Positions 7,335 through 39,543 of a DNA stretch of 64,000 nt are shown here, in pieces (the stretch's first letter is position 1; each line of letters opens with the position of its first letter). The DNA comes from Candidatus Daviesbacteria bacterium RIFCSPHIGHO2_12_FULL_37_16. GTDB taxonomy: Bacteria; Patescibacteriota; Microgenomatia; Daviesbacterales; UBA10151. Made by a program: the position numbers and the translations under genes. The notes under the pieces were generated by a model. That model did not search any database and had not been told where the DNA came from. It saw only the letters and a list, made by a program, of their open reading frames with translations. The stretch spans positions 103,097 through 167,096 of the forward strand of contig MFDF01000008.1 of the NCBI GenBank assembly GCA_001776785.1, given 5' to 3'.

Positions 7335-7379
7335 AAAACTTTATACACCTTTTAATTTATTTAGTAAAGCTGATTCTAG

Positions 7380-7462
7380 TGCCGAAGGTGGGAGTCGAAC
7401 CCACACAGCCTTGCGGCTAGTAGTTTTTGAGACTACCGCGTATACCATTCCGCCACTTCGGC
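7380..7462 (-). tRNA. tRNA-Leu (anticodon CAA), class II with long variable arm
   Basis: The minus-strand sequence GCCGAAGTGGCGGAATGGTATACGCGGTAGTCTCAAAAACTACTAGCCGCAAGGCTGTGTGGGTTCGACTCCCACCTTCGGCA shows an anticodon stem GTAGT/ACTAC with loop CUCAAAA, a T-arm GGGTTCGACTCCC and a 7-bp acceptor stem. CCA is not encoded. Confidence 0.85.
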
Positions 7463-7622
7463 AAATAAGCCTGTAAATTATATCAATTAATGAACTTGAC
7501 CTCAAATAACTGTCTTGACCTGTATTGAACAATATAGATAAGTATATTAGATTATAAATTAAAAATATAACAAATATTTGTAGGTACGCAAAATTGTTAT
7601 AATTTACAATCTTGTAAATTAA

Positions 7623-26962: not shown

Positions 26963-27784
26963 ATGAAAACATACCTTGCATCAGTTAAAGATTATTCAGG
27001 ATATCTGCAGCTTAGCAAACGTCAAAAAATTATCATTGCCTCAATTTTAGTAACACTAGGTTTGATTGTTTCAACCCAAACTGTAAGCTTTTTATATGCA
27101 AAGTTTAGACTAATTTTTGTACTGGGAATTATTGGTTACCTTTTATCTTTATGGGCACTTTGGGAGGGAATGTCAAAGTCAAAGGCTTTAATTTTATTAA
27201 TATTACCAACGCTTTATACAGTTTCTGTCACCAGCTTTTATTTTCTTCTTCCTATAAGGTGGTTAACCAGGCTCCCAATAGCAGTTTTATTTGCAATCTC
27301 TTTTTATACACTTTTGCTGTCACAAAATGTATTCAATGTTGCAAGTTTGAGGACGATCCCTTTATATAGGGCTGCCTCAACCTCAAGCTTCCTTTTTACA
27401 ATCATCACATCTTTTTTTCTATATAATGTTGTCTTTGCTCTTAACTTACCATTTTACTGGAATGGGGTAGTAGTGGCATTTTTAAGCTTTCTTTTGATAA
27501 TTCAGGTCCTTTGGTCTGTAAAAATGGAAAAGATAACAGGACAAATAATAACCTATTCTTTAATACTTGGTTTGTTAATAGGTGAGGGGGCAGTGGCCTT
27601 GTCATTTTGGCCTGTTGCCCCAACTATCTGGTCCCTGGCTCTTTCTACGTATCTTTATATATTATTGGGTGTAGTGAATGATTACCTAAGGGATAGGCTT
27701 AATAAAAGACACCTCAGGGAATATATTTTTGTAGCTGCAACAGTTTTAACATTTAGTTTTTTAGTAACATCCTGGTCAGGCTAG
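26963..27784 (+). CDS. polytopic membrane protein
   Basis: At least 7 hydrophobic helices, no motif recognised. Confidence 0.4.
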   Translation: MKTYLASVKDYSGYLQLSKRQKIIIASILVTLGLIVSTQTVSFLYAKFRLIFVLGIIGYLLSLWALWEGMSKSKALILLILPTLYTVSVTSFYFLLPIRWLTRLPIAVLFAISFYTLLLSQNVFNVASLRTIPLYRAASTSSFLFTIITSFFLYNVVFALNLPFYWNGVVVAFLSFLLIIQVLWSVKMEKITGQIITYSLILGLLIGEGAVALSFWPVAPTIWSLALSTYLYILLGVVNDYLRDRLNKRHLREYIFVAATVLTFSFLVTSWSG

Positions 27785-28212
27785 GGAAGTGGAGAAGTCT
27801 GCCACAGGGTAAAAAAAGGATTCGAATAATTCCCGAAACTATAGGACATATCGTGAAAAGAAAGTGATATAGTGTGATATAGTTACAGCGTTAACAATAG
27901 CAAACTATAGGGTCTACTGACCCTGCGAGAACTTCACATACTCCAAAGATCGTTGTCTTGGAGTGCTTCGTTCTCTAAAGTCTAGAGGGAGTGGACTACA
28001 CTTTCTAAGGACCTACTTGTGGATAACTTTAGCAGTTCTTACATAAGATTGTTAACCGTATTTTCATGCGTGAAAAATAAAGCGACATCATTTAGCAGAG
28101 GAGTATGGATATTAAATTATCATAAGCATGAGTGTAGAGGCATACTTTTGCTTCCTGCATCCCTGTCCCTACTAGTATTTACCTCTACTTTATTGACAAC
28201 AAGACTGCCCAT

Positions 28213-28233
28213 ATCCACTATGTCGCACAATGT
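28213..28233. repeat. direct repeat copy 1 (ATCCAyyTTGTCGCACAATrT-like)
   Basis: The GC-containing 11-mer TGTCGCACAAT (28221-28231) recurs at 28702-28712; flanks extend the match to about 17/21. Confidence 0.5.
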
Positions 28234-28693
28234 AGCTTATACGACATTCAGGATGCGTCTTTGCCGGAGGAGTGGTTAAACCCAATATAAAATATTAAAG
28301 ATAAAAAATCAAAAATATTTAAGCGTGGTTATTTGTGCCCGTTTTTTGTCATTTTTACTTTTTAATTTTTACTTTTTAATTTTTCCCATTACTAAAATAA
28401 CAATGTTGGGTTTGGACTGCTATATAGACCTAATCTTAAGATTACCAATTGCACCTCTCCCCTCTGCAAAAGCCGTTTTAGGGGACTTTTTGCGCCTTGT
28501 GCAAAAAGGCACCGGTATGAGTTAAATTTATTTGATCAACTAGAAAGTTGAATTCTTTCTTTTCCAAATAAACCACATCTTCTTGCCAAACTAATAGATC
28601 AGTAAATGTTTGTATTTTTCCATCTTTCATATTCTTTAATCATAAATCTTTAATCTTAAATCCACTATATGAATTATCAACCTTTTATGAACT

Positions 28694-28714
28694 ATCCATC
28701 TTGTCGCACAATAT
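28694..28714. repeat. direct repeat copy 2, 60 bp upstream of the giant-gene start
   Basis: See copy 1. Spacing is 481 bp. Confidence 0.5.
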
Positions 28715-28773
28715 TAAGTTTATTTCCGAGCTCCTCGTTGACTATTTACTAATAATATCTGAAGATATATTTA

Positions 28774-31700
28774 ATGGACTCAGTTCGGGAACTTCTGCAC
28801 AATAAAAAAACCCTCATTACCCTGCTCCTAGTTGGAATCCTGATTTTGGCAATACCTCTGGGGATAAGTCTTGTAAAATACCAGCAAAGGTTGTCCTCCC
28901 AGGCAGCAGTACCTGGTATAGAAGTGACCGAGGGAGATTGTGTTAAGTTAAAAAATGGAGTTAAAGTCTTAACCTGCGGCTTTGTTCCATTAAAGCTTAA
29001 TTTCCCGGCCACCCCAACCCCAACTCCTTCCCCAACCCCTACCCCAACGAGTTCCCCTACTCCCACCAGTTCAATTACGCCATCTCCTACTGGTACAACA
29101 GCATCCGTAAACCTGACCATAAATAACCAGGATGGTCCTATACATGTTGATAGTGGTGCTACTTTGGTTCTGAAGTGGGTAACTAATCAAGTCAGAGCTT
29201 GCTCAGCCTCTGAAGCATGGTCTGGAAGTAAAAATGATGATGGTGCATCAGAGACAATATCAAATATTCTTAGCCCTAAAACATTTGTACTGACATGCGA
29301 ACAAAGGGGTAATCCTGATAACAAAATTTCTGACTCCATAACTGTTGTAGTAGGTAATGGGAATTCGAACCTTAGACAAACTGATCCTGCTAAATTTGAA
29401 GCCGATTTAAAAACCATTAGAGATCTAGGAGGGGGTGTTTTGTACATTCCAGCTGGTAGTTATACTTTGCCTAAAGGCTTTACCATATACTCAAATACAA
29501 CCCTTATGGGAGATGGTAAAGGACAGACCAAATTAAAGTTGCCTTCTGGAGTTGATTCAAAAGTAATCTCTTCCTCTGGTGAGGGGAATAACTCAAATAT
29601 AGTGATTAGGGACTTATCAATTGAAGGTCCAGGTGTAAGTGGTCCCAAAGATGACTGTTGCTATGGAATTAGACTTAGAAATATTAAAAACTCTTATTTA
29701 ATTAATGTTGAGGTGTCCGGTTTTAGTCAAGATGGAATTTATTTAGGTCAAGTTAGTAACAAAGGAGTAGATAGTACAAGAATTACAGGGTGTAGTGTTT
29801 TTGGAAATGGTCGTAACGGTATATCAATAGTTCATGGTCAAGGAAATGTTATAGATGGTTGCAGTATAAATGAAAATGGGTCGAGAGAAGCAGTCTCGGC
29901 TATAGACTTAGAACCCGATGGGGGGTTAAATGTTTCCAATAATGTCATAATGAATAATTCGATTGGAGGAAATGCAGGTAATGGTATTGGTCTAGGCGAT
30001 AATCCAAATGATCCAGGAGGGATTGTGTCAAACAATGGGGTTTGTGGAAATACCTTTTCTGGTAACGGTTTTGCAGAGATTGCTCAGAGTAACGATCAAG
30101 GTACATATACTTCTGGTTGTTCAATTCCTTCTGGTCTGTCAAATCTCCCTGCAGCTCCCTCAAGGCCCTCTGCCAATTCTGGCAGTAGTTTATTTGCAAA
30201 ACTTAAAAACCTTATTCCCACTGTATATGCCCATAATATCCCCCCTCAAATAAGTGGTGTTGACTGTTCCAAACCAAGTGTCTTTGTATCATGGGTAATT
30301 GACCCAAATGACAATCACGATATGGATATATTCCGCGATGGGGTCAAAGTAGGTGAAGCAAATGGATTTTTTGAGGACACTACTGTTACCAGAGGTAGAT
30401 TTTATGCATATTCTATTGGTCATGGAGCAAGTGGAACTAATACCAGTGTATGGGCTGATGTAACCTGTGCCACTACCCCACCACCAACCCAACCTCCCAC
30501 AACACCCCCAACTGCCTCACCTACCCAACCTCCCACCCCACCACCTACCTCTCCTCCAACCTCGCCTCCAACTACACCTCCTGGAGGTCCACAGTGCTCT
30601 GATGATATAAACAATGACTTTGATGGCCTGATTGACATAGAAGACCCACAGTGCCATACGGATGGTGATGCAGATAACCCGGAAACCTATGATCCAACTA
30701 TTAAGTTTGAATCCAGACAGTACAGGCTGGCTGAATCAGAATCTGAACTTCAATTCACCCTTTGGAGTGACTACAGAGAAGATCCCCTTCTTACAGAATT
30801 TGGTCTAACAGATGATTCACCAGGGATCAAGCAAATTTGGGTTGAGTTTAAAGAAACTGATGGTAAAACTACAAAAGACAAAGTTACTATTGAACTTGTG
30901 GAACCGGATCCGGTTATTAAAAGCGCCAGGTGTGATTTTGATTCTATAAACAAACAAAACCTCAAGGTTACCATAAAAGGAGAAAGATTCGGAACAAAAG
31001 AAAGCTCTGTTTTTATGGGTTTAGATCTGTCTGAGGAAGATCTTGACCCAAAGAAAAAACCCTTCTCAGGTGCAGAAGTTTTGGAATGGAATGATAAAGA
31101 AATTACACTTCTTATAAGAAGCTTTAAGACATTTTTATTAGAAAGTGTAAGGCTTAAGATGTCTGTTTTTCGCTCAGACCAATCATTCTCAAACATTGCC
31201 TCCTGTGACATTGGTGCATCAATGATTTCACTGGGAGCCCGGGTTTTCTGCAGGGAGCCTGGAAAATTTGACACAGAAAATGTTAAAGTAACTGTCTTTG
31301 ATAAAGACTCAAAGACTGGCAAAATAAACAAGGCTGAAGAAACTGTAAAGATTGACAAAGATGGAGTTATTACTGGATTAAAAACCATTCTGCAGACTGG
31401 CAAAAATTATGCATTATCGATCAAAGCTCCAAACTCGCTCAGAAGGAATGCCACCTTTGTGGCTGAAGAAGGAACAACTATTGTCACAAGACCAAATGAT
31501 CAGGACTTTATCCTGCCCATTGGAGATATTGCCCCAACCCAAAGCCCTGATGGAAAAATTAACACAGTTGATAAAGCAGAATTAACAAGACAGTGGAGAA
31601 TTTTTGGGGAAAATATAAAAGCTCAGACTGGTGACTTTAACAGGGACACCAAAGTTAACTCCTTTGACTGGGCCTGCATGAGGTATGACTTTAATGCAGA

Positions 31701-32292
31701 AGATGACCCCATACCTACAGATATAGAGCAAATTGCACCAATTTCCCAAAACAATTCTTCCGACGCATCAACTCCTGTTAAGCTGGCTAGTACAGGCGGA
31801 GGATCCTCCTCTATTCAACAAACTCCTGTACCTTTATCAGAAGCTTATTTTTCTTTTATCCCTTTTAAAAGCACAGTAAAAAAAAATTGTGATCACGCTG
31901 TAAATATTTATTTAGATACAGGAGGGAAATTTATTGATGGCGTTGATGTAATTATAAAATTTAATCCAAATGTAATAGCAGATACTACCTTTTTTGACGG
32001 CGTGCTTCCATTTGATAAGTATGAGGTAAATGATGATAATACTAGAGACTTTATAACTATTTCAGCCCCTACTCCAACAAATAAACCATTTAGAGGATCT
32101 GGAATATTTGGCCGAATTGTCTTTAAGGTAAAGCCAAACCCTCCTGTCTCTACTTTAGATTTAAGTTTTGATTTTGATCCCAATGATAAAGGCAAAACTA
32201 CTGATTCAAATATTGTTGAAGATAAGACTCTCAAAGATATCCTTAGCTATGTAGTCAATGGAAATTACCAGATTACATCAGGATCCTGCTAA
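28774..32292 (+). CDS. giant surface protein 1 with the following domains: N-terminal signal anchor; Pro/Thr linkers; right-handed beta-helix (pectate-lyase fold); FN3-like module; one thrombospondin-type-3-like calcium-binding repeat; conserved C-terminal module with a dockerin-like duplicated segment; C-terminal cohesin-like domain
   Basis: 1172-aa ORF. Beta-helix repeats: NVEVSGFSQDGIYLG / CSVFGNGRNGISIVHGQGNVIDGCSINENG. TSP3-like CSDDINNDFDGLIDIEDPQCHTDGDADNPETYDP. Dockerin-like GDIAP...DGKINTVDKAELTRQWRIFG...GDFNRDTKVNSFDWACMRYDF. Cohesin-like AVNIYLDTGG...IIKFNPNVIA...GIFGRIVFKVKPN...FDFDPNDKG. Confidence 0.75.
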   Translation: MDSVRELLHNKKTLITLLLVGILILAIPLGISLVKYQQRLSSQAAVPGIEVTEGDCVKLKNGVKVLTCGFVPLKLNFPATPTPTPSPTPTPTSSPTPTSSITPSPTGTTASVNLTINNQDGPIHVDSGATLVLKWVTNQVRACSASEAWSGSKNDDGASETISNILSPKTFVLTCEQRGNPDNKISDSITVVVGNGNSNLRQTDPAKFEADLKTIRDLGGGVLYIPAGSYTLPKGFTIYSNTTLMGDGKGQTKLKLPSGVDSKVISSSGEGNNSNIVIRDLSIEGPGVSGPKDDCCYGIRLRNIKNSYLINVEVSGFSQDGIYLGQVSNKGVDSTRITGCSVFGNGRNGISIVHGQGNVIDGCSINENGSREAVSAIDLEPDGGLNVSNNVIMNNSIGGNAGNGIGLGDNPNDPGGIVSNNGVCGNTFSGNGFAEIAQSNDQGTYTSGCSIPSGLSNLPAAPSRPSANSGSSLFAKLKNLIPTVYAHNIPPQISGVDCSKPSVFVSWVIDPNDNHDMDIFRDGVKVGEANGFFEDTTVTRGRFYAYSIGHGASGTNTSVWADVTCATTPPPTQPPTTPPTASPTQPPTPPPTSPPTSPPTTPPGGPQCSDDINNDFDGLIDIEDPQCHTDGDADNPETYDPTIKFESRQYRLAESESELQFTLWSDYREDPLLTEFGLTDDSPGIKQIWVEFKETDGKTTKDKVTIELVEPDPVIKSARCDFDSINKQNLKVTIKGERFGTKESSVFMGLDLSEEDLDPKKKPFSGAEVLEWNDKEITLLIRSFKTFLLESVRLKMSVFRSDQSFSNIASCDIGASMISLGARVFCREPGKFDTENVKVTVFDKDSKTGKINKAEETVKIDKDGVITGLKTILQTGKNYALSIKAPNSLRRNATFVAEEGTTIVTRPNDQDFILPIGDIAPTQSPDGKINTVDKAELTRQWRIFGENIKAQTGDFNRDTKVNSFDWACMRYDFNAEDDPIPTDIEQIAPISQNNSSDASTPVKLASTGGGSSSIQQTPVPLSEAYFSFIPFKSTVKKNCDHAVNIYLDTGGKFIDGVDVIIKFNPNVIADTTFFDGVLPFDKYEVNDDNTRDFITISAPTPTNKPFRGSGIFGRIVFKVKPNPPVSTLDLSFDFDPNDKGKTTDSNIVEDKTLKDILSYVVNGNYQITSGSC
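29008..29090 (+). repeat. Pro/Thr/Ser-rich low-complexity linker coding repeat (PTPTPSPTPTPTSSPTPTSS)
   Basis: ccaaccccaactcc... periodic CCn-ACn codons. A second linker lies at 30472-30590. Confidence 0.7.
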
Positions 32293-32377
32293 AATCCATC
32301 ATCCTAAACGTTTGTATTTTTTCTATAGCTGACTGGTTGACTTTAGTAAAATCTTCCTTCACTATTATATTAAGACA

Positions 32378-35300
32378 TTGCAGGAATACTTAGAAATTTT
32401 TAAAGGTAAAAAAGTTATAACCAGTTTAGTGGTTCTCCTTTTTTTGGTCATAAGTATCCCACTAGCTTTAAATCTTTTTAATTCAAGGCTTAAACTGTTT
32501 TCCAGGGCAGCTTTAGGAGACCCAATTGAACTTTTAGCAGGAAGGTGTGTTGTTTCTGTTGAAGGTAAAAAGATTAACTGCGAAGAGATACCTTTGAAAT
32601 TACTCTCCCCTCTTGGACCTCCCATTCAAAAACCTCCAGCACCTCAAAACCTGGTTGTAGAATCCTCAAGCTGTGAGATCAACTCTCCAGTCATTAAACT
32701 AAAGTGGGACCATGTTAGTGGAGTTTCGGGCTACAGTGTGATTAGGCGGTGGGGAGATAATGACGGGATTGAAGTCTTTGATTTGGACCCTAATTCCAAT
32801 ACCTTTAATGATTCCCCGGCGTCTGACGGTATTGTCTCAGGTACTGAGGTAAAATATCAGGTTTTAGCAGGCAGTGATATTCAGTCAGACCCATCAAATG
32901 AGGTGACTACCCAAGTCGCACTCTGTGGGGTCCCATCCCCACCCCCCACCGCCTGCAATCCCAGGCCAAATGTTATCAGAAACCTCCAGCTTCTCTCAGC
33001 TGACAGGTACAAAGTTACTGCAACAGTGGGAACAAATACCAGTACCCCTACAAATAGTTTTACCAAAGTTAAATTTAACAGCTTAAGTAATGGAAAAATA
33101 GAAATTGGTGGTACTCCTGGTAGGGCTGCTCCATTTGAATATGGACTCAATGGAGCCCAATCTTATTCATTTGAAGTAAAACTGGATAGGCCCTGCCAGG
33201 AATCAACAACGATTTTTGAACATTTTGATGCCTGTGGAAGCTTTCCTGATTTTCAGGGATCTGGAGCTGGCCCTACTGGTTTTGGCCAATTCCCTCAGTG
33301 TCAAACAAGTACACCTGCCCCAACCCCAACAGCAGTCCCTTTACCAACTCCCCTTCCAGGTGTGACATCCTCAACAGTAACCTCAACTGGAGACTTCAGG
33401 CTTATAGGTTCTGGACAATGCACTGGAGGCTCTCCAACTATAGATCTTGTTTGGGATAGGACAGACGGGGGGCCATATACAATAGAAAAAACTCCTGTCC
33501 CAATCCCGGGCCAGCTTGCAGGTCAGCTAACATTGAGGCCAATATTATCAACCTTTGGAAATTATATTGCACTAAACACGACCTACAGTATCTATATTCA
33601 GTCAGTAAATGGTCCTAAATCAGACACTATCTCTATTGCCTCTCCAGCAACCTGTTCTGGAGCATCACTAATTTTTAAAAATAACTTTTCTTTAACAAGC
33701 ATTTTAAATATTCTTAAACCATTTATTGAAAACACCAAAAATATATTTGGTTCACCTGCGTATGCTATTGATCCAGGTGATACAGGTCCTGGTGACCTGC
33801 AGTTAGGTGTTAGCGGCCGCTGTGACTCATCTTTCAGACCGTACGTAAGTGTTGACTGGAATACTAATGGATATTATTACCATATTTTAAGAAACGGCTC
33901 TGAAATAGCCTGGACACCTGCTGCGATGAGTGATTATGGTGTGCAGTCTGGACAAACTTATACTTACCAACTGATTAAAACAGGAATTGATGAACCTGCT
34001 TCCCCAACACAATCTACATCAGTTCCAACCTGTGTAGCTCCAACTCAGGTTCCAACTCAAGCTCCAACACAAGCTCCAACTCAGGCACCAACTCAAGCTC
34101 CAACTCAGGTTCCAACTCAGCTACCCACTCAGGCTCCTACAACTGTTCCTACTTCAACACCAACTGCATATTACCTCTATCCCCCAACTACTCAGACTGT
34201 TGCTACTTCAAACTGCACTGATATAAGAACAACTAAGGTTTCCTGGGATAGTGTGACTGATTCAGGAGGAAATCATAATTACACTAAAACTTTCACTAAA
34301 GCTGCGCTTGACCAAACCTATCCTCAATGGATAATAGGTGCAGGTCTTGATGGAAATAAGGACTTTCCTGCAACAGTTACTATTGCAGGTCAGTCATACA
34401 CTATTCAGCCTGGTGTCTGGAGTTCACATGATGATACCTATCTTGAGTTTTATTACACAGGTGCATTTAGAAAAATACATGGGATAACTGCAGATAATTT
34501 TACTGTTGCAGGATCAGGAACAATTGCAGTGCCAGCAACAATTACTGTGACTGGAAGCAGTCTAAGTTCATATAACAGTACCCCTGTTCCTCCCAATACA
34601 GGTGTAGATATTAAATATTGTGCTGCAGCTGCTCCTACTCCACAGTGCTCCGATTCGTTGGATAATGATTCAGATGGCAAAATTGACTCTGCCGATCCAG
34701 GTTGTCACACAGATGGTAATCCAAATAATCAAGGTTCATATGATCCAAATGACAATGATGAAAGCAATATTACTGAATGTAATGACACAATAGATAATGA
34801 TGGGGATGGTAAAATAGATTCTGCTGACCCACAGTGCCATACAGATGGTAATGCTGACAATCCATCCTCATACGACCCCAATATCCCTTCTGAAGGCGAA
34901 CCACCCCCAGGCAACTTTACAGTCAAATACAGGCTTGCAGAAACAGAAGAAGGTCTAAGCAGTGCAGAATTCAAGCCATATACTCAGGAGCCTATAATAA
35001 CATCCTTTATACTGCAAAACATAGGTCCTGGGCCAAAGCAGGTTTGGGTAGAATTCGTGGACTCAAATGGAGGTTCAAGAGTTGAGAATATAAACCTTAC
35101 CTGGGTTGAACCTGACCCCACAACTGATGCTGTTTCATGCACATTTGATATTTCCAAAGAAAATGTCAAAGTAGTGATTAAAGGAACCGGATTTACAGCA
35201 ACGCCAGGCAGGATCAGTGTTGATGGTAAAGATGCAGAAATTCTGGAATGGAAAACTGATTTGATAACTGCCTTAGTGAGAAAACCAAGCCTGCCAGCCG

Positions 35301-35917
35301 GTGGATCTAAAAGGTTTGCAATTCAGGTTCTCAGGGCAGACGGCAAGGTTATTACTACTGCCCCCTGTGAAATTGATAGGTCATTAATCTATCTTGGCGC
35401 CCGGGTCTTCTGTAGGGAGGAAGGTAAATTTGATGTAGAAAAAGTCCAAATAAGAGTCGTTGATGATGTAAAAAACAAAGTTGATGAAACTGTCTCAATT
35501 GACAAAGATGGTGTAGTCAAAGGGCTTAAAACTTCAATCCAGGCAGGCAGAAGGTATGGCCTCTCTATAAAAGCTCCAAAATCTGTCAGAAGAAATGTTT
35601 TCTTCACTGCTCAGGAAGGCACAACTATAGTTTCCAATCCAGACGGCAGCCAATTTATCCTTCCGGTTGGTGATATTGCCCCTGCAATTCAGGCTGATGG
35701 TAAGATAAACACACTTGATAGGGCTGAACTAACCAGGCAATGGAGAATCTTTGGTACTCCAAAAGAGCCCCAATCTGGAGACTTAAAGATAGATACCAAA
35801 GTTAACTCTTTTGACTGGGCTTGTCAGAGGTATGACTTTAACGCTCAAGATGATCCTATTTTGAATGAAGTTGAGGCTACACAATCTGCAAGTATTATGA
35901 GTAATAACTTGCAATGA
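32378..35917 (+). CDS. giant surface protein 2 (paralog) with the following domains: N-terminal signal anchor; FN3-like modules; (PTQA)n linker; two TSP3-like calcium-binding repeats; conserved C-terminal module with dockerin-like segment
   Basis: 1179-aa ORF. Its N-terminal module GRCVVSVEGKKINCEEIPLKL parallels giant 1 (GDCVKLKNGVKVLTCGFVPLKL). The C-terminal ~330 aa align closely with giant 1 (IYLGARVFCREEGKFD..., GDIAPAIQADGKINTLDRAELTRQWRIFG...DTKVNSFDWACQRYDF). Confidence 0.75.
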   Translation: MQEYLEIFKGKKVITSLVVLLFLVISIPLALNLFNSRLKLFSRAALGDPIELLAGRCVVSVEGKKINCEEIPLKLLSPLGPPIQKPPAPQNLVVESSSCEINSPVIKLKWDHVSGVSGYSVIRRWGDNDGIEVFDLDPNSNTFNDSPASDGIVSGTEVKYQVLAGSDIQSDPSNEVTTQVALCGVPSPPPTACNPRPNVIRNLQLLSADRYKVTATVGTNTSTPTNSFTKVKFNSLSNGKIEIGGTPGRAAPFEYGLNGAQSYSFEVKLDRPCQESTTIFEHFDACGSFPDFQGSGAGPTGFGQFPQCQTSTPAPTPTAVPLPTPLPGVTSSTVTSTGDFRLIGSGQCTGGSPTIDLVWDRTDGGPYTIEKTPVPIPGQLAGQLTLRPILSTFGNYIALNTTYSIYIQSVNGPKSDTISIASPATCSGASLIFKNNFSLTSILNILKPFIENTKNIFGSPAYAIDPGDTGPGDLQLGVSGRCDSSFRPYVSVDWNTNGYYYHILRNGSEIAWTPAAMSDYGVQSGQTYTYQLIKTGIDEPASPTQSTSVPTCVAPTQVPTQAPTQAPTQAPTQAPTQVPTQLPTQAPTTVPTSTPTAYYLYPPTTQTVATSNCTDIRTTKVSWDSVTDSGGNHNYTKTFTKAALDQTYPQWIIGAGLDGNKDFPATVTIAGQSYTIQPGVWSSHDDTYLEFYYTGAFRKIHGITADNFTVAGSGTIAVPATITVTGSSLSSYNSTPVPPNTGVDIKYCAAAAPTPQCSDSLDNDSDGKIDSADPGCHTDGNPNNQGSYDPNDNDESNITECNDTIDNDGDGKIDSADPQCHTDGNADNPSSYDPNIPSEGEPPPGNFTVKYRLAETEEGLSSAEFKPYTQEPIITSFILQNIGPGPKQVWVEFVDSNGGSRVENINLTWVEPDPTTDAVSCTFDISKENVKVVIKGTGFTATPGRISVDGKDAEILEWKTDLITALVRKPSLPAGGSKRFAIQVLRADGKVITTAPCEIDRSLIYLGARVFCREEGKFDVEKVQIRVVDDVKNKVDETVSIDKDGVVKGLKTSIQAGRRYGLSIKAPKSVRRNVFFTAQEGTTIVSNPDGSQFILPVGDIAPAIQADGKINTLDRAELTRQWRIFGTPKEPQSGDLKIDTKVNSFDWACQRYDFNAQDDPILNEVEATQSASIMSNNLQ
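34038..34140 (+). repeat. about 8 tandem copies of a 12-bp unit (caagctccaact) encoding (PTQA/V)n
   Basis: The linker sequence ...VAPTQVPTQAPTQAPTQAPTQAPTQVPTQLPTQAPTTVPT...; the nucleotide units are near-identical. Confidence 0.8.
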
Positions 35918-35957
35918 ATAAGGAGAATAATTTAATCTAGAGAAAGTAGGGATAAAA

Positions 35958-36773
35958 ATGGAAGTATCTGCCAAACCATTAATATATGTAACTAAAGATT
36001 CTGAGATAAAACTTGAACCTAAAAGCCTGCTTAAACGCAGCTTCCTGAAGATTCTTTTCATAATTTTGGGTGTCATTATTATCGGTGAACTTATTTGGGG
36101 AGTCCGTTCAATAATCTCCTCGCAAAACGCACTTATTCCGTCTGTTTCTGAACTTTCTGAAGGGTCTATAATAGTTGATTCCCCAAAAGTTAATTATCAG
36201 GTTGGTGAAGCAGTCCCTATAACTATCAGGGTGGCCACAGGAGGAAAATTAACTGATGCTGCAGATCTAATCCTAAAATATGACCCCAGTGTTTTAAGCC
36301 TTGTAAGCTCTGATATAAAAATAGGCCAAATCTACAAAGATTACCCGGTTGCAGATAATGACCAGTCCTTTGGAGAAGTTAAAGTCTCAGGAATTACCCC
36401 TCCTGGTGAAACAGGTTTTGGTGGAATTGGTGAACTAGCCAGTCTTCAGTTTAAAGCCCTATCATCTGGCAAAACAGTAGTTTCTGTAGATTTTCAAAAA
36501 GATTCAACAATAGATTCAAATATTGTAGAAGCAAATACCACTCATGACATGCTGGGGGTAGTTTATAATAAAGAACTTTTTATTGGTTCTTCACAGTCAA
36601 CCGCGGTTGAAAAAGATAACAAAAACCAGTGCCAGGGCTACATTCAGCTTTGTCAGACATCTGAAAACCAAACAGGAAGGCAGTTCTGCCAACAGGGAAG
36701 GATACAAGGCAACCAGTGTAAATTTGATCCAAATCTGACAATCAGCTGTGATGAATGCAGGGTTTCACAATAA
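35958..36773 (+). CDS. cohesin-like domain protein, N-terminally membrane-anchored, with C-terminal Cys-rich module
   Basis: TM LKILFIILGVIIIGELIWGV. Cohesin-like VPITIRVATGG...LILKYDPSVLSL...GELASLQFKALSSGKTVVSVDF. The C-terminus has 7 Cys (CQGYIQLCQTSENQTGRQFCQQGRIQGNQCKFDPNLTISCDEC). Confidence 0.6.
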   Translation: MEVSAKPLIYVTKDSEIKLEPKSLLKRSFLKILFIILGVIIIGELIWGVRSIISSQNALIPSVSELSEGSIIVDSPKVNYQVGEAVPITIRVATGGKLTDAADLILKYDPSVLSLVSSDIKIGQIYKDYPVADNDQSFGEVKVSGITPPGETGFGGIGELASLQFKALSSGKTVVSVDFQKDSTIDSNIVEANTTHDMLGVVYNKELFIGSSQSTAVEKDNKNQCQGYIQLCQTSENQTGRQFCQQGRIQGNQCKFDPNLTISCDECRVSQ

Positions 36774-36822
36774 ATTTTTAGCTGACCTTGACTTTAAACC
36801 TTATTGTGCACACAATAGATAT

Positions 36823-37548
36823 ATGGGTAGATTAAAATACATTTTAATGTCCTTCCTGGCCTTAGTAATATTCTCAAGCCCGGCATTGGCCCAGGCTGCA
36901 ACCCTTTCATTAAATCCTTCCGCAGGTACATTTAATAGGGGTTGTGTTTTAGGGGTCAATATTGAGCTTGATACTCAGGGCGGCCAAACTGATGGTACAG
37001 ATGTGATCCTAATTTTTGATCCCACAAAGCTTTCAGTTAAAACCTCTGATATTACAAATGGCAAAATTTATCAGGACTACCCTGGCAACTCTGTAGATGC
37101 CCAATCCGGCAAACTTTCTATATCGGGTATCTCCTCAGTTTCAGAACCCTTTACAGGCAAAGGCACTTTTGCCACAGTCCAATTTCATGTTTTGGAAAAT
37201 GCCCCAACTGGTGCAACTTTAATCAGGTTTGATTTTGATCCCAATGATAAAACCAAAACTACAGACACCAATGTAGTTGAAAGAGGCACAATAGCTGACC
37301 TGTTAAGTAGTGTAACTGATGGAAATTATACTGTTGGTACTGGTTCTTGTGTAAGCCAGGGTCAGGGCGCTGCTGGCACTACCATTGGGGGGCAGGGTCA
37401 GGTTGGTACAGTTTCTGCTACTCCCCTGCCTACTAAAGTTCCTTTAAAAGAGTTACCACAGGGAGGGATATTTGATAATACAATAATTATTGCAGCAATT
37501 GGTACAGTTTTAACTATTATTGGCATTGCAGGCCTGGCAATGCTGTAA
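36823..37548 (+). CDS. cohesin-like domain protein with cleavable signal peptide, Gly/Thr linker and C-terminal LPQGG + TM anchor
   Basis: Signal peptide MGRLKYILMSFLALVIFSSPALAQA. Cohesin-like GVNIELDTQGG...ILIFDPTKLSV...GTFATVQFHVLENAPTGATLIRFDFDPNDKTKTTDTNVVE. C-terminal KELPQGGIFDNTIIIAAIGTVLTIIGIAGLAML. The ORF track opens at 36748; I prefer the Met at 36823, which avoids overlap with the upstream gene. Confidence 0.6.
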   Translation: MGRLKYILMSFLALVIFSSPALAQAATLSLNPSAGTFNRGCVLGVNIELDTQGGQTDGTDVILIFDPTKLSVKTSDITNGKIYQDYPGNSVDAQSGKLSISGISSVSEPFTGKGTFATVQFHVLENAPTGATLIRFDFDPNDKTKTTDTNVVERGTIADLLSSVTDGNYTVGTGSCVSQGQGAAGTTIGGQGQVGTVSATPLPTKVPLKELPQGGIFDNTIIIAAIGTVLTIIGIAGLAML

Positions 37549-37572
37549 TTTTCTCACATCACACTTCTCAAT

Positions 37573-38499
37573 ATGACAAAATCCATCCCCTCCCTAATTA
37601 CTGACTTCTTAGAATATTTGGAGCTTGAACGCAACTCATCCCAGCGCACTATTAGAAATTACGACCATTACTTAAAAAGGTTTGCTGACTTTGCAGGGGA
37701 AATTACCCCAAAAGATATAAATCTGGAAGTTATAAGAAAATACAGGCTTCATCTTGCTAGATATACAGACCCTAAAACTAAAGCTCCCTTAAAAAGAAAA
37801 ACCCAAAACTTTTTTATGATTGCCTTAAGGGCATTTCTAAGGTATCTTACCAGGTTAGATATTCAAACCCTTTCTGCAGAAAAAGTTGAGCTTGGTGAGC
37901 AAGACCCCTCCCCACTTAAAGTTTTAGATGAAGAAAGCCTGCAAAGGCTTTTAGATGCTCCTGACACCTCTTCAAAAGAAGGGATCAGGGATAAAACTAT
38001 TTTAGAAATGCTTTTCTCAACAGGTCTGAGAGTCTCAGAGCTTGCCTCACTAAACAGGGAGCAGGTTAACTTAGACAGAAAGGAGTTTGGGGTTGTGGGC
38101 AAGGGTGGTAAGGAAAGAGTTGTCTTTTTATCAGATACAGCCTGTCAGTGGATAGAAAGGTACTTAATGATAAGAAAGGACAGTTTTAAGCCTCTTTTTA
38201 TCCGCTACCAGGGGCGTGTTGCCCCGGAAGATAATGGTGAGTATATGAGGCTTTCAACCCGCTCAATAGAAAGGATAGTAGAAAAATATGTTAAAGCTTG
38301 TGGACTCTCAGTTAAAGCTACTCCCCACACCCTGCGTCATAACTTTGCAACTGATCTTTTAATAAACGGAGCGGATATAAGAAGTGTTCAGGAAATGCTT
38401 GGTCATTCGAATATTTCAACAACCCAAATCTACACCCATGTCACCAACAAGCACTTAAAAGATGTTCACAAAGCCTTTCATTCTAAAAATAAGGAATAA
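37573..38499 (+). CDS. tyrosine recombinase, XerC/XerD-type
   Basis: N-terminal SAM-like core-binding domain (LEYLELERNSSQRTIRNY). Catalytic R...HTLRHNFATDLLINGADIRSVQEMLGHSNISTTQIYTHV with the terminal Tyr. Confidence 0.8.
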   Translation: MTKSIPSLITDFLEYLELERNSSQRTIRNYDHYLKRFADFAGEITPKDINLEVIRKYRLHLARYTDPKTKAPLKRKTQNFFMIALRAFLRYLTRLDIQTLSAEKVELGEQDPSPLKVLDEESLQRLLDAPDTSSKEGIRDKTILEMLFSTGLRVSELASLNREQVNLDRKEFGVVGKGGKERVVFLSDTACQWIERYLMIRKDSFKPLFIRYQGRVAPEDNGEYMRLSTRSIERIVEKYVKACGLSVKATPHTLRHNFATDLLINGADIRSVQEMLGHSNISTTQIYTHVTNKHLKDVHKAFHSKNKE

Positions 38500-38557: not shown

Positions 38558-38908
38558 CTACTTCTTAGCTACATCTTTAGCTAGCATAGAAAGTACTGTT
38601 GAAACAACAGATAAAACAATAGCTGCAAGAATTGCTGGTAATACCCCCTCAATTGTTAACCCTGGTACTATTGCTGCTGCTAACCATAAAATTACTGCAT
38701 TTATAACAAAGGTAAAAAGTCCCAAAGTTAAAATATTTAAAGGCAGGGTTAAAAGTAAAAGTATAGGTTTGATAAAAGTATTTATTACTCCTAAAATAAT
38801 TGCTGCTAAAATAGCTGTTGCAAAACTATCTACTCTAAATCCTGGTACAATATAGGCTGTGATAATTAGCGCTGCTGCATTAAGTAAAAGTGCTATTAAT
38901 AAATTCAT
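38558..38908 (-). CDS. DUF360 / phage-holin-4_2 family membrane protein (YvlD-like)
   Basis: LNAAALIITAYIVPGFRVDSFATAILAAIILGVINTFIKPIL...LTLGLFTFVINAVILWLAAAIVPGLTIEG matches the family pattern. The plus-strand ORF 38517..38855 is antisense noise. Confidence 0.5.
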   Translation of the reverse strand: MNLLIALLLNAAALIITAYIVPGFRVDSFATAILAAIILGVINTFIKPILLLLTLPLNILTLGLFTFVINAVILWLAAAIVPGLTIEGVLPAILAAIVLSVVSTVLSMLAKDVAKK

Positions 38909-38979: not shown

Positions 38980-39543
38980 ATGGATACAAAGGACAAAAAA
39001 CTTCTCCTTGATGCATTAATTTTGATACTATCTGTTACCTTTGCAGTCTGGACTATTAATTCAGGTTTTATAGATAAAGTATTTGAAACACTCCTACCAG
39101 TTCAGTTTTTAGCAGAATTCTTTGCAGGCATGCTCTTTACCTCTTTTTTGACCACTCCCCTTTCCCTGGCCTTTATTTATGTTTTATCAGAAAATACAAA
39201 CCCAATGGTTATTGCACTTGTTGGTGCTTTAGGGGCTGCAGCTGGGGATTTCTTCATAGTAAAACTTTTTAGGGATTCAATTTTTCAGGATTTCTCCACA
39301 CTCTCCAGAGACTTAAAGTTAAAAAGATTTCTGCATTTTTTCAGGCATTCCCATTTCAACCATTTAGCCCCCCTGATGGGGATGCTGGTTATTGCATCCC
39401 CATTCCCTGATGAAATAGGTTTGATGCTTTTAAGTGCCAGCAAACTCCAATACTCCCAACTTTTTCTGCTAACATATTTATTGAATGCATTGGGAATTTT
39501 TCTTTTTGCCAGTTCTTTTAACCTGCTCATATGGAAAATGTAG
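38980..39543 (+). CDS. hypothetical membrane protein
   Basis: 4-5 hydrophobic helices. Confidence 0.35.
   Translation: MDTKDKKLLLDALILILSVTFAVWTINSGFIDKVFETLLPVQFLAEFFAGMLFTSFLTTPLSLAFIYVLSENTNPMVIALVGALGAAAGDFFIVKLFRDSIFQDFSTLSRDLKLKRFLHFFRHSHFNHLAPLMGMLVIASPFPDEIGLMLLSASKLQYSQLFLLTYLLNALGIFLFASSFNLLIWKM

What the first reader, a model, noticed from the sequence alone, without database searches (positions are those of the whole stretch)
27785..28773. About 1 kb non-coding leader before the cohesin-dockerin cluster with a pair of direct repeats and hairpins
Elsewhere in the window intergenic spacers are 0-100 bp, but here about 990 bp have no credible ORF. The region contains several distinct features:
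- A 21-bp direct repeat pair ATCCAyyTTGTCGCACAATrT at 28213-28233 and 28694-28714. The GC-containing 11-mer TGTCGCACAAT is exact in both copies, 481 bp apart.
- A perfect 8-bp stem hairpin CTTTTTGCgccttgtGCAAAAAG at about 28478-28500.
- A tandem tacttttttaattt duplication at about 28355-28385.
- Several short hairpins at 27900-27990.

I considered a structured ncRNA, a long 5' UTR, regulator-binding repeats and an integration scar. The repeats could be att-like sites bracketing an insertion whose right end lies 60 bp before the giant gene.
Basis: seen in the sequence. Interest (0 to 1): 0.5.

Follow-up and report, generated by a model that had tools for sequence, protein, structure and literature searches.

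The report
Chromosome-resolution (dif-like) site in conserved leader

Summary
In detail: 27785-28773 has no credible ORF, and the repeat, hairpins and tandem duplication are all present.

The spacer is not a scar. About 700 bp of it (27836-28510) is conserved at the DNA level after the DUF5656 gene in about 40 Candidatus Daviesbacteria species. A compact form occurs in more distant CPR metagenome contigs, always between DUF5656 and a co-oriented Xer-family recombinase gene.

- **Repeat copy 1** is the left arm of a 28-bp palindrome, ATGTCGCACAA|TGTAGC|TTATACGACAT (28220-28247). It has the dif layout of two 11-bp arms around a 6-bp centre. It lies at the cumulative GC-skew maximum of the window, upstream of xer (37573-38499). 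The same palindrome occurs in 25 phage contigs with unrelated flanks.
- **Repeat copy 2** (28702-28714) is a separate conserved "solo-arm" class. It lies 15-55 nt upstream of TTGACA boxes of the cohesin-dockerin-xer operon.
- **Upstream features** are a tandem extended -10 (27865-27883) resembling the window's tRNA promoter, and a perfect DnaA box (28018-28026).

A structured RNA is not supported: no Rfam hit, no covariation above shuffles, and fold z-scores that flip strand between species. No deletion junction between the repeats was found.

Best reading: a new, self-contained dif-xer module with a long conserved leader. Confidence is moderate.

The parts
27785..28773 (.). Whole ORF-free spacer between the DUF5656 gene (26963-27784) and the first beta-helix/dockerin gene (28774-32292).
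27836..27859 (+). Operator-like composite motif: AAACTATAGG (27836-27845) plus CGTGAAAA (27852-27859). Related copies lie at 27902-27911 and 28069-28076. In distant relatives the same motif lies inverted (CCTATAATTTTCACG) in 2-3 phased copies upstream of the tandem -10.
27864..27883 (+). Tandem GTGATATAGT x2, giving two extended -10-like boxes (TGATATAGT at 27865 and 27875). This is the most conserved block. It resembles the tRNA-Leu promoter TGATATAAT-TTACAG at 7485-7471 (-). It always points towards the palindrome and xer.
27908..28012 (+). Three hairpins in a species-variable insert. The homologous segment is 21-277 nt long in other species.
28018..28026 (+). Perfect DnaA-box 9-mer TGTGGATAA. 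One per element in 25 of 42 loci, always on the + strand. In compact relatives it lies 3 nt after the tandem -10.
28061..28076 (.). TTTTCATGCGTGAAAA, an imperfect copy of the 16-bp palindrome TTTTCACGCGTGAAAA conserved in relatives (block B).
28220..28247 (+). 28-bp dif-like palindrome ATGTCGCACAA | TGTAGC | TTATACGACAT.
28266..28275 (+). Conserved GGAGGAGTGG box after the palindrome. A second GGAG-rich box lies at about 28097-28104.
28345..28386 (.). It is AT-rich in all relatives, but the repeat itself is not conserved.
28405..28510 (+). Block D, the 3' conserved block with invariant AAGCCGTTTTAGGGG (28470-28484). Conservation stops at about 28510.
28693..28714 (+). Repeat copy 2: solo arm TGTCGCACAATAT (28702-28714) of the class TTGTCGnACAATATTA, with no right arm.
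28738..28743 (+). TTGACT, a -35-like box 24 nt after the solo arm. TTGAC[AT] follows most solo arms in relatives at 15-55 nt.
28774..38499 (+). Five co-oriented genes with gaps of 0-85 nt: two dockerin proteins of about 1175 aa, two cohesin proteins, and the Xer-family recombinase (37573-38499). GC is higher (0.40-0.42) and GC skew is near zero.

Best explanation
The spacer is the conserved non-coding control region of a self-contained Xer/dif chromosome-dimer-resolution module at the replication terminus of a Candidatus Daviesbacteria (CPR) genome.

**The core site.** The 28-bp palindrome at 28220-28247 has two 11-bp imperfectly inverted arms around a 6-bp centre. I infer that it is the recombination site (dif-like) for the Xer-family tyrosine recombinase encoded downstream (37573-38499). 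Two recombinase monomers would bind the arms, and strand exchange across the 6-bp centre would resolve dimeric chromosomes.

**Repeat copy 1** is simply the left arm of this site.

**Repeat copy 2** is a separate, conserved solo-arm site just upstream of the promoter of the operon that ends in xer. Its most likely role is as an operator through which the recombinase, or a partner, tunes its own operon. This is inferred, not shown.

**The upstream part.** It carries a tandem extended -10 promoter with a DnaA box at or just after the expected start point, preceded by operator-like repeats. I infer that it drives rightward transcription through the dif region towards xer as a long leader, possibly gated by DnaA.

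**The ancestral layout.** It was DUF5656 | element with palindrome | xer. In Daviesbacteria the cohesin/dockerin genes have been inserted between the solo-arm promoter and xer.

**Phages.** Phages carrying the same palindrome probably use it as an attachment site.
For: **Shown.**
- About 700 bp of the spacer gives syntenic nhmmer hits in 38 of 41 Daviesbacteria species, with E-values down to 4e-33, although the flanking protein is only 46-65% identical. All these loci are ORF-free there.
- The palindrome is present in 28 of 41 species with consensus atGTCGcACAATGta.cTTATgCGACgTCa.
- The variable left-arm base (C/G/T) is never compensated in the right arm, and the C/T asymmetry (ACAA versus TTAT) is constant. 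The arms therefore behave as two protein half-sites, not as an RNA stem.
- The right arm occurs nowhere else in 521 kb, apart from three isolated chance matches to the 10-mer that have no left arm beside them.
- Seventeen of 28 positions equal E. coli dif (GGTGCGCATAATGTATATTATGTTAAAT). The right arm begins TTATGCGA in the Daviesbacteria consensus (TTATACGA in this window), as in Xanthomonas dif (sequences from PMC2731167).
- The cumulative GC skew of the window peaks at 26-30 kb and then falls. Genes switch from + to - just after xer. Relatives lacking the cohesin genes show xer followed at once by convergent homologues of the window's minus-strand genes.
- The recombinase scores as XerD/XerC/XerA-like (248, 243 and 224 bits; above the XerA cut-off).
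- Of 114 metagenome loci found with the tandem -10 pattern, 46 have DUF5656 and/or YebC upstream and/or a Xer-like gene downstream (Xer-like in about 24 of them; co-oriented in all but L132). Thirty-eight carry the palindrome 200-860 nt after the -10. In the compact form it lies about 300 nt before the xer start.
- Twenty-five IMG/VR contigs carry GTCGYACAAT-N5-TTATRCGAC (the scanned pattern, GTCGNACAATRNNNNTTATRCGAYR) with unrelated flanks.
- A large terminase gene lies 0.2-3 kb away in 5 of 5 contigs tested.
- No Xer-like recombinase was found among 251 ORFs in the 219 kb held for those contigs.
- Solo arms are all on the + strand and intergenic. Most are followed by TTGAC[AT], and they precede cohesin/dockerin or xer genes.
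- The tandem -10 resembles the tRNA-Leu promoter.

**From the literature.** dif is defined as 11+6+11 bp, non-coding, palindromic and at the skew maximum. Single-recombinase systems have dif linked to xer.
Against: - No recombination was observed or can be tested here.
- The 11-6-11 architecture alone is not rare: 21 such sites with at least 9/11 matching arms in the window, against 9-24 in shuffles.
- Only 64 kb of this genome is visible, so neither uniqueness of the site nor the global skew maximum can be shown.
- The site's G+C (36%) is not lower than the genome's, unlike proteobacterial dif.
- Thirteen Daviesbacteria species keep only the left arm at this position, with no right arm within 6 kb. 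If the palindrome is the essential dif, their site must lie elsewhere or differ.
- The site lies 10-13 kb from the point of gene convergence in this window.
- The roles assigned to the solo arm, the DnaA box and the tandem -10 are inferences from sequence alone. No -35/-10 pair passed the simple promoter scan.
- The other conserved blocks (CGTGAAAA/TATAGG repeats, block D) are not explained by this model.
- Phage contigs were seen only in part, so 'no integrase' is provisional.
Confidence: 0.55

Rival explanations
1. The conserved 0.6-0.7 kb is the gene for a new large non-coding RNA. It would be transcribed from the tandem tRNA-like promoter at about 27888 and end near 28510. The palindrome would be one of its hairpins, which phages use as an attachment site in the way they use tRNA and tmRNA stem-loops.
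For: - The extended -10 boxes are nearly identical to the tRNA-Leu promoter, and both are followed by TACAG.
- The window's + strand folds far better than shuffles (z = -5.95), against -1.39 for the - strand.
- Variable segments form species-specific hairpins, for example after CTATAGG.
- G-rich and C-rich blocks flank the AT-rich insert in compact relatives, with a few double changes.
- Conserved blocks have contiguous invariant runs, which is unlike coding sequence.
Against: - No Rfam family matches in the window or in 22 related loci, even at E up to 1-10.
- RNAalifold finds no consensus structure in the best-aligned block.
- Hand-drawn helices pair no better than column shuffles: 67.6% against 68.0%.
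- No covarying long-range helices appear among conserved columns.
- The z-score asymmetry reverses in L043 (+ -1.76, - -5.00) and vanishes in L107 (-1.74, -0.80).
- The palindrome arms do not covary.
- The CGTGAAAA/TATAGG motif flips orientation between lineages, which is DNA-site behaviour.
Confidence: 0.2
2. The palindrome and the solo arms are operators for an ordinary transcription factor that controls the cohesin/dockerin-xer operon. They would have nothing to do with recombination, and the phage copies would be operators for the same host factor.
For: - Solo arms sit 15-55 nt upstream of TTGACA boxes of several genes in the locus.
- The region is full of other repeated short motifs typical of regulatory DNA.
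- The motif contains a small internal dyad, TTGT-N3-ACAA.
Against: - The 11+6+11 layout and the TTATGCGA arm match Xer sites rather than typical 14-20 bp operators.
- Linkage to a Xer gene is conserved even where the cohesin genes are absent.
- The position is at the skew maximum.
- Identical 24-28 bp sites occur in many unrelated phages beside terminase genes and often near contig ends. That fits attachment sites better than operators.
- No regulator gene is conserved in the locus other than YebC upstream.
Confidence: 0.12
3. One reading: the two repeats are att-like duplications bracketing a roughly 480-bp inserted element (integration scar or miniature mobile element).
For: - The two copies are direct repeats 481 bp apart that share 17/20 nt.
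- Degenerate dif copies with one conserved arm flank known Xer-exploiting islands such as the gonococcal GGI (PMC5357621).
Against: - The intervening segment is conserved and syntenic in about 40 species, and has a counterpart in relatives that lack copy 2.
- The spacing varies from 430 to 830 nt with the same content.
- No deletion junction occurs in the metagenomes.
- All eight population copies are identical.
- The solo arm has its own conserved extension, so it is not a decayed duplicate.
Confidence: 0.05
4. The region is a replication-origin-like region, with a DnaA box, iteron-like tandem repeats and an AT-rich unwinding stretch.
For: - A perfect DnaA box is enriched about 170-fold in the element.
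- Tandem 10-bp repeats and an AT-rich tract with 14-nt repeats are present.
Against: - GC skew runs from positive to negative, and genes converge, across this region. That is the signature of a terminus, not an origin.
- There is only one DnaA box per element.
- No dnaA or dnaN gene is nearby.
Confidence: 0.03

Closest known systems
difSL/XerS module of streptococci and lactococci (and difH/XerH of Helicobacter/Campylobacter)
   Same: A single Xer-family recombinase gene is genetically linked to its palindromic site at the replication terminus and inherited as one module (PMC5357621, PMC2731167). Here the palindrome and xer are linked in Daviesbacteria and in distant CPR relatives.
   Different: The site here has the classical 11+6+11 layout, not the 31-bp difSL with an 11-bp centre. 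It lies about 300 nt (compact relatives) to about 9.3 kb (this window) upstream of xer, inside a 0.5-0.8 kb conserved element with a promoter, a DnaA box and other blocks. The protein scores nearer XerD/XerC/XerA than XerS.
Classical dif/XerCD of E. coli and other Proteobacteria; archaeal dif/XerA
   Same: It is 28 bp long with two 11-bp partly symmetric arms and a 6-bp centre beginning TGTA. It lies in non-coding DNA at the cumulative GC-skew maximum. The inner arm bases ..CAnAA / TTAT.. are conserved, and 17 of 28 positions equal E. coli dif.
   Different: The outer arm bases differ. G+C is not depressed. Only one Xer gene is seen near the site. The site is embedded in a conserved leader rather than in arbitrary surroundings. 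Nothing is known about FtsK dependence.
IMEX elements (CTX-phi, VGJ-phi, TLC-phi, gonococcal GGI with difGGI)
   Same: These are mobile genomes that carry a dif-like sequence and, as far as seen, no integrase of their own. Known degenerate dif copies have one good arm and one divergent arm. Here 25 phage contigs carry the palindrome and no Xer-like gene in the held flanks.
   Different: The carriers here are tailed phages with large terminase genes, not filamentous phages or islands. Integration was not observed. The chromosomal solo arm does not bound an insertion of the expected kind.
cer/psi plasmid resolution sites with accessory sequences
   Same: A Xer core site is flanked on one side by a few hundred bp of conserved protein-binding DNA.
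   Different: The distance between the upstream repeats and the core varies from 200 to 860 nt among relatives. That is incompatible with the fixed geometry of cer/psi accessory sequences. The location is chromosomal and at the terminus.

Membership tests
dif (Xer chromosome-dimer-resolution site) | About 28 bp: two 11-bp partly inverted arms separated by a 6-8 bp central region | tested here: met
   28220-28247 is ATGTCGCACAA|TGTAGC|TTATACGACAT, with 9/11 arm positions complementary. The same layout occurs in 28 species. The architecture alone is not rare by chance.
dif (Xer chromosome-dimer-resolution site) | Located in non-coding DNA close to the replication terminus (cumulative GC-skew maximum) | tested here: met
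   The site is in an ORF-free spacer. The window's cumulative skew peaks at 26-30 kb and genes converge after xer. Only 64 kb was seen, so the whole-genome maximum is not testable.
dif (Xer chromosome-dimer-resolution site) | A cognate Xer-family tyrosine recombinase is encoded in the genome (linked to the site in single-recombinase systems) | tested here: met
   The protein at 37573-38499 scores as XerD 248, XerC 243 and XerA 224 bits. Linkage is conserved in the Daviesbacteria loci where xer falls within the held flank (a Xer-like gene in about 25) and in about 24 of the 46 syntenic metagenome loci.
dif (Xer chromosome-dimer-resolution site) | Sequence similarity to known dif, especially the XerD arm TTATGTTAAAT | tested here: inconclusive
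   Right arm 7/11, centre 4-5/6, left arm 6/11, so 17-18 of 28 overall against E. coli dif. TTATGCGA is shared with Xanthomonas dif. No statistical model was applied.
dif (Xer chromosome-dimer-resolution site) | G+C content lower than the chromosome | tested here: not met
   10/28 = 36%, against 35-38% in the surrounding window. This criterion was derived for Proteobacteria of higher G+C.
dif (Xer chromosome-dimer-resolution site) | Single copy per chromosome, and Xer-dependent recombination between two copies | not testable with these tools
   There is one full site in the 64-kb window and one per 12.8-kb related locus. No whole genome and no experiment were available.
IMEX / att scar bracketing an insertion | Two sites flank DNA that is absent from relatives or from part of the population | tested here: not met
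   The intervening DNA is conserved in about 40 species. No deletion junction was found. The eight population copies are identical.
Known structured RNA family (Rfam) | Match to a covariance model | tested here: not met
   No hit at gathering score. The best E-value in the region was 0.17, to an unstructured model. None was found in 22 related loci.
Structured non-coding RNA (any) | Conserved secondary structure supported by covariation on one strand | tested here: inconclusive
   RNAalifold gave none in block D. Proposed helices paired no better than shuffles. Z-scores were strand-inconsistent. The alignments were sequence-based (MAFFT), so variable hairpins could not be tested.
Chromosomal replication origin | Skew minimum, divergent genes, a cluster of DnaA boxes | tested here: not met
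   The region shows a skew maximum and convergent genes, with one DnaA box per element.

The most novel reading that the evidence does not exclude
CPR (Microgenomates) bacteria would resolve chromosome dimers with a previously undescribed self-contained module. Its dif site would be embedded in a 0.5-0.8 kb conserved leader or RNA that is driven by a promoter, carries a DnaA box, and reads into xer. That arrangement would couple recombinase supply to the replication cycle. Integrase-less tailed phages would lysogenise these hosts by carrying the same dif sequence. These would be the first dif assigned to the CPR and the first IMEX-type tailed phages. The solo-arm sites would then be a new kind of recombinase-responsive operator controlling surface (cohesin/dockerin) genes.
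Probability: 0.3. Interest if true: 0.75.

Novelty: new variant of a known kind. Interest (0 to 1): 0.6.

Why it matters
- **No dif site has been described for CPR/Patescibacteria.** Full-text searches for dif with Patescibacteria, for DUF5656, and for Daviesbacteria non-coding RNA returned nothing.
- **A practical landmark.** A recognisable terminus marker (palindrome plus xer plus DUF5656) would help in finishing and orienting CPR genomes assembled from metagenomes.
- **A route to host-phage links.** The same sequence in phages offers a direct, testable way to link uncultured CPR hosts to their phages, and suggests how phages with no integrase could lysogenise them.
- **An unexplained element.** The surrounding conserved blocks, promoter and DnaA box form a well-defined non-coding element present across a large lineage. 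Its function is open and can now be tested by binding and recombination assays with a single protein and short DNA substrates.

Tried and rejected
- **Degraded gene.** The 50-aa minus-strand ORF reminded me of the N-terminus of four-helix-bundle (23S IVS/Avd-like) proteins. It has no Pfam or NCBIfam hit even at E = 10, and conservation ends before most of it. Rejected.
- **Known RNA.** Rfam at gathering and E-value thresholds on the window and 22 related loci found nothing. There is no tRNA or tmRNA.
- **Consensus RNA structure.**
  - RNAalifold on block D gave zero pairs.
  - Hand-built helices H1-H3 were not better than shuffles.
  - An all-against-all search for covarying stacks among conserved columns found only low-complexity G-U matches.
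  - RNAalifold on nine compact homologues gave only invariant or weakly supported pairs.
- **Thermodynamic strand test.** It was strong for the window's + strand but reversed or absent in two relatives. A larger script for this timed out.
- **Excision between the repeats.** The junction search was negative.
- **Population variation.** The eight contigs are identical apart from a scaffold gap.
- **Origin of replication.** Rejected on skew and gene orientation.
- **Sigma-70 promoter and terminator scan.** Nothing above the shuffle expectation.
- **Phage-encoded Xer.**
  - No close homologue in IMG/VR.
  - No profile hit in the phage flanks.
- **Correction.** An early note said the tRNA -10 ends 7 nt before the tRNA. 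It ends 15 nt before.
Full report
**1. The observation**

The window comes from a Candidatus Daviesbacteria (CPR, Microgenomates) population of the Rifle aquifer. The flanking DUF5656 protein is encoded identically on 22 public contigs from Rifle samples. Its relatives in species-representative genomes are Daviesbacteria MAGs.

Between the DUF5656 gene (26963-27784) and a 1172-aa beta-helix/dockerin gene (28774-32292) there is no ORF of 90 aa or more. The small ORFs match no protein family.

- The repeat lies at 28212-28231 and 28693-28712 (17/20 identical), with TGTCGCACAAT exact in both copies.
- The 8-bp hairpin exists, but at 28486-28508 rather than 28478-28500.
- The 14-nt tandem units lie at 28345-28386.
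- Hairpins are predicted at 27908-28012.

The eight public copies of the spacer are identical apart from a scaffold gap, so there is no population variation.

**2. The spacer is a conserved element**

I fetched the DUF5656 locus from 41 other species, where the protein is 46-65% identical, and searched them with the spacer DNA.
- Thirty-eight loci gave syntenic nhmmer hits directly after the gene. They cover spacer positions of about 50-750 (window 27836-28510), with E-values down to 4e-33.
- Every locus has 650-1200 bp without ORFs at this position.
- The conservation profile shows these blocks:
  - 27864-27912
  - 28025-28110
  - 28220-28250
  - 28405-28505
- The variable stretches between blocks range from 21 to 277 nt.
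- Conservation ends at about 28510.

**3. What the repeat is**

The 11-mer with a free middle base (YGTCGNACAAT) occurs 73 times in 521 kb of these loci, against about 2 expected. Seventy copies are on the + strand and 63 lie within 200-1400 nt after DUF5656. Nearly every species has two copies. They fall into two classes.

*Class 1: the palindrome.*
- It is found in 28 species and in the window as copy 1.
- Its consensus is atGTCGcACAA TGTAnC TTATgCGACgt: two 11-bp arms in inverted orientation around 6 bp.
- The variable left-arm base (C, G or T) is never compensated on the right.
- The C/T difference between the arms (ACAA versus TTAT) is constant.
- The arms therefore evolve as two protein half-sites and not as an RNA stem.
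- The right arm occurs nowhere else in these loci, apart from three isolated chance matches to the 10-mer with no left arm beside them.

*Class 2: the solo arm.*
- It is copy 2 in the window, and 48 instances were found.
- Its consensus is gtTGTCGnACAATATTA. It has no right arm but has its own conserved extension.
- It is always intergenic.
- It is usually followed after 15-55 nt by TTGAC[AT], and then by a cohesin/dockerin gene or by xer.

**4. Genomic setting**

*Gene content downstream.* It is not random. It consists of members of one cohesin/dockerin family, followed by a Xer-like recombinase. In the window these are five co-oriented genes at 28774-38499 with gaps of 0-85 nt, ending in xer at 37573-38499. 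That protein scores 248, 243 and 224 bits against the XerD, XerC and archaeal XerA models.

*Terminus signature.* After xer the genes turn to the minus strand. Relatives without cohesin genes (for example L046) go straight from the element to xer and then to convergent homologues of the window's minus-strand genes. The window's cumulative GC skew rises to a maximum at 26-30 kb, drifts, and falls steeply after 42 kb. Positive-to-negative skew with converging genes marks a replication terminus.

*Distant relatives.* A metagenome scan with the tandem -10 pattern returned 114 usable loci.
- Forty-six have DUF5656 and/or YebC upstream and/or a Xer-like gene downstream. About 24 of these have the Xer-like gene, and it is co-oriented in all but L132.
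- Thirty-eight carry the palindrome, with right arm TTAT or TTTT.
- In a compact group the order is as follows:
  - tandem -10
  - 3 nt
  - TGTGGATAA
  - about 170 nt
  - ATGTCGCACAATGTATCTTTTGCGAC
  - about 300 nt
  - xer start

The ancestral module is therefore DUF5656 | element with palindrome | xer. The cohesin/dockerin genes of Daviesbacteria sit between the solo-arm promoter and xer.

**5. Comparison with dif**

Published criteria for dif are:
- 28 bp as 11+6+11;
- partial dyad symmetry;
- non-coding location;
- position at the skew maximum;
- a conserved XerD arm;
- in single-recombinase systems, linkage of the site to xer.

These come from PMC5357621 and PMC2731167.

The site at 28220-28247 meets the layout, location and linkage criteria. 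It shares 17 of 28 positions with E. coli dif. The right arm begins TTATGCGA in the Daviesbacteria consensus (TTATACGA in this window), as in Xanthomonas dif.

Two points count against it:
- It does not show a depressed G+C.
- The 11-6-11 architecture alone is common by chance.

The case therefore rests on conservation, position and linkage, not on the palindrome as such.

**6. Phages**

The pattern GTCGNACAATRNNNNTTATRCGAYR matches 25 IMG/VR contigs from many environments, including the Rifle site. Their flanks are unrelated to each other and to the chromosomal element.
- Five of five contigs tested have a large terminase gene 0.2-3 kb from the site.
- None of 251 ORFs in the 219 kb held matches a Xer-family profile.
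- IMG/VR holds no close homologue of the host Xer.
- In the eight contigs stored whole, the site lies in the outer third in seven (positions). This is as expected if assemblies break at an attachment site.

A 24-28 bp sequence shared by host chromosomes and diverse phages is most simply a recombination site. The arrangement resembles elements that exploit the host Xer system (IMEX). Only parts of these contigs were seen and no integration junction was observed, so this step is an inference.

**7. The rest of the element**

*Tandem -10.* TGATATAGT at 27865 and 27875 is the best conserved block. It resembles TGATATAAT-TTACAG upstream of the window's tRNA-Leu gene, whose -10 ends 15 nt before the mature 5' end. 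It points towards the palindrome and xer in every locus with one exception, L132.

*DnaA box.* A perfect DnaA-box 9-mer follows, once per element in 25 of 42 loci and always on the + strand. That is about 170-fold enrichment over the flanks. In the compact group it lies where transcription would start.

*Upstream repeats.* The CGTGAAAA(N)TATAGG repeats lie upstream. In the compact group they are inverted and phased at 21-22 bp. This is how protein-binding DNA behaves.

*Inference.* This is a regulated promoter reading through the dif region into xer, or in Daviesbacteria towards the cohesin-dockerin-xer operon, which also has its own solo arm and TTGACT. None of this is shown, and the simple promoter scan found nothing above chance.

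**8. Is it a structured RNA?**

Evidence against:
- No Rfam match.
- RNAalifold finds no structure in the well-aligned block D.
- Three plausible hairpins pair in 67.6% of cells, against 68.0% in shuffles.
- No covarying long-range stacks.
- Fold z-scores do not agree across species:

| Locus | + strand z | - strand z |
|---|---|---|
| Window | -5.95 | -1.39 |
| L043 | -1.76 | -5.00 |
| L107 | -1.74 | -0.80 |

Evidence for:
- The variable inserts do form species-specific hairpins.
- The promoter looks like a stable-RNA promoter.

An RNA product therefore remains a live rival, but it is not demonstrated. My alignments were sequence-based and cannot test helices in the variable parts.

**9.

- The DNA between the repeats is conserved everywhere.
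- It has a counterpart in relatives with no second copy.
- The spacing varies with the same content.
- The predicted deletion junction is absent from metagenomes that contain this organism.

I reject a recent insertion bracketed by the repeats.

**10. What remains unexplained**

- Thirteen Daviesbacteria species have only the left arm at the copy-1 position, and an extra 335-355-aa Xer-like gene right after the element.
- The function of block D, the GGAGGAG boxes and the CGTGAAAA/TATAGG repeats is unknown.
- The role of the solo arm is inferred only from its position.

**Verdict**

This is a real, conserved, non-coding element. It is a new variant of the known single-recombinase dif-xer modules, in a lineage where none has been described, with a phage connection worth following. 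Confidence in the dif assignment is moderate (about 0.55). The mechanism proposed for the surrounding blocks is weaker.

Noticed in passing
window 28774-38499: The two dockerin giants, two cohesin genes and xer form one tightly packed co-oriented block. GC is 0.40-0.42 against about 0.36 upstream, and GC skew is near zero. It looks like an island-type insertion between the solo-arm promoter and xer. Relatives vary in the number and size of these genes.
   Followed up: partly
window 7471-7485 (-) and tRNA-Leu 7379-7462 (-): The tRNA-Leu(CAA) gene is preceded by an extended -10, TGATATAAT, followed by TTACAG. The -10 ends 15 nt before the mature 5' end. TGnTATAAT occurs only five times in the window.
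   Followed up: partly
L011, L014, L016, L019, L020, L023, L024, L028, L036, L038, L045 (about +240 to +1100 after the DUF5656 gene): 'Short-variant' Daviesbacteria lack the right arm of the palindrome. Most of those whose flank extends far enough (L011, L014, L016, L019, L023, L024, L028, L036, L038, L045) carry an additional, divergent Xer-like gene (314-356 aa) directly after the element. L048, which has no copy-1 motif at all, has both this gene and the usual distal xer.
   Followed up: partly
window 28478-28630 (-): A 50-aa ORF is called as a gene in public metagenome annotations of this contig. It has no family hit and lies mostly outside the conserved part, so it is probably a spurious call.
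   Followed up: yes
L099, L118, L120, L122, L130, L151 (metagenome contigs, several from Ga0126342): These contigs hold tandem arrays (2-12 copies, mostly at 20-nt period) of TGATATAGTnTGATAYAGT. This appears to be an unrelated satellite that happens to match the promoter pattern.
   Followed up: no
L049: This is the only related locus with negative GC skew on both sides of the element (-0.12 upstream, about -0.2 downstream). It may reflect a large inversion or a mis-binned contig.
   Followed up: no
window 28061-28076 and homologous block B in L009-L049: The 16-bp perfect palindrome TTTTCACGCGTGAAAA is imperfect in the window. From memory, its half-site GTGAAA(A) recalls parS half-sites. This was not tested.
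   Followed up: no
L050 and L063 (IMG/VR contigs from Rifle sample 3300025322): Phage contigs from the same aquifer as the host carry GTCGTACAATGTGTATTATACGAC. The right arm is identical to the window's site, and the left arm differs by one base. These are candidate phages of this or a related Daviesbacteria population.
   Followed up: partly
window 38558-38908 (-), 38980-41912 (+), 41902 onwards (-): The switch of gene orientation after xer is not clean. One minus-strand membrane-protein gene is followed by two plus-strand genes (one a P-type ATPase), and then an unbroken run of minus-strand genes with strong negative skew.
   Followed up: no
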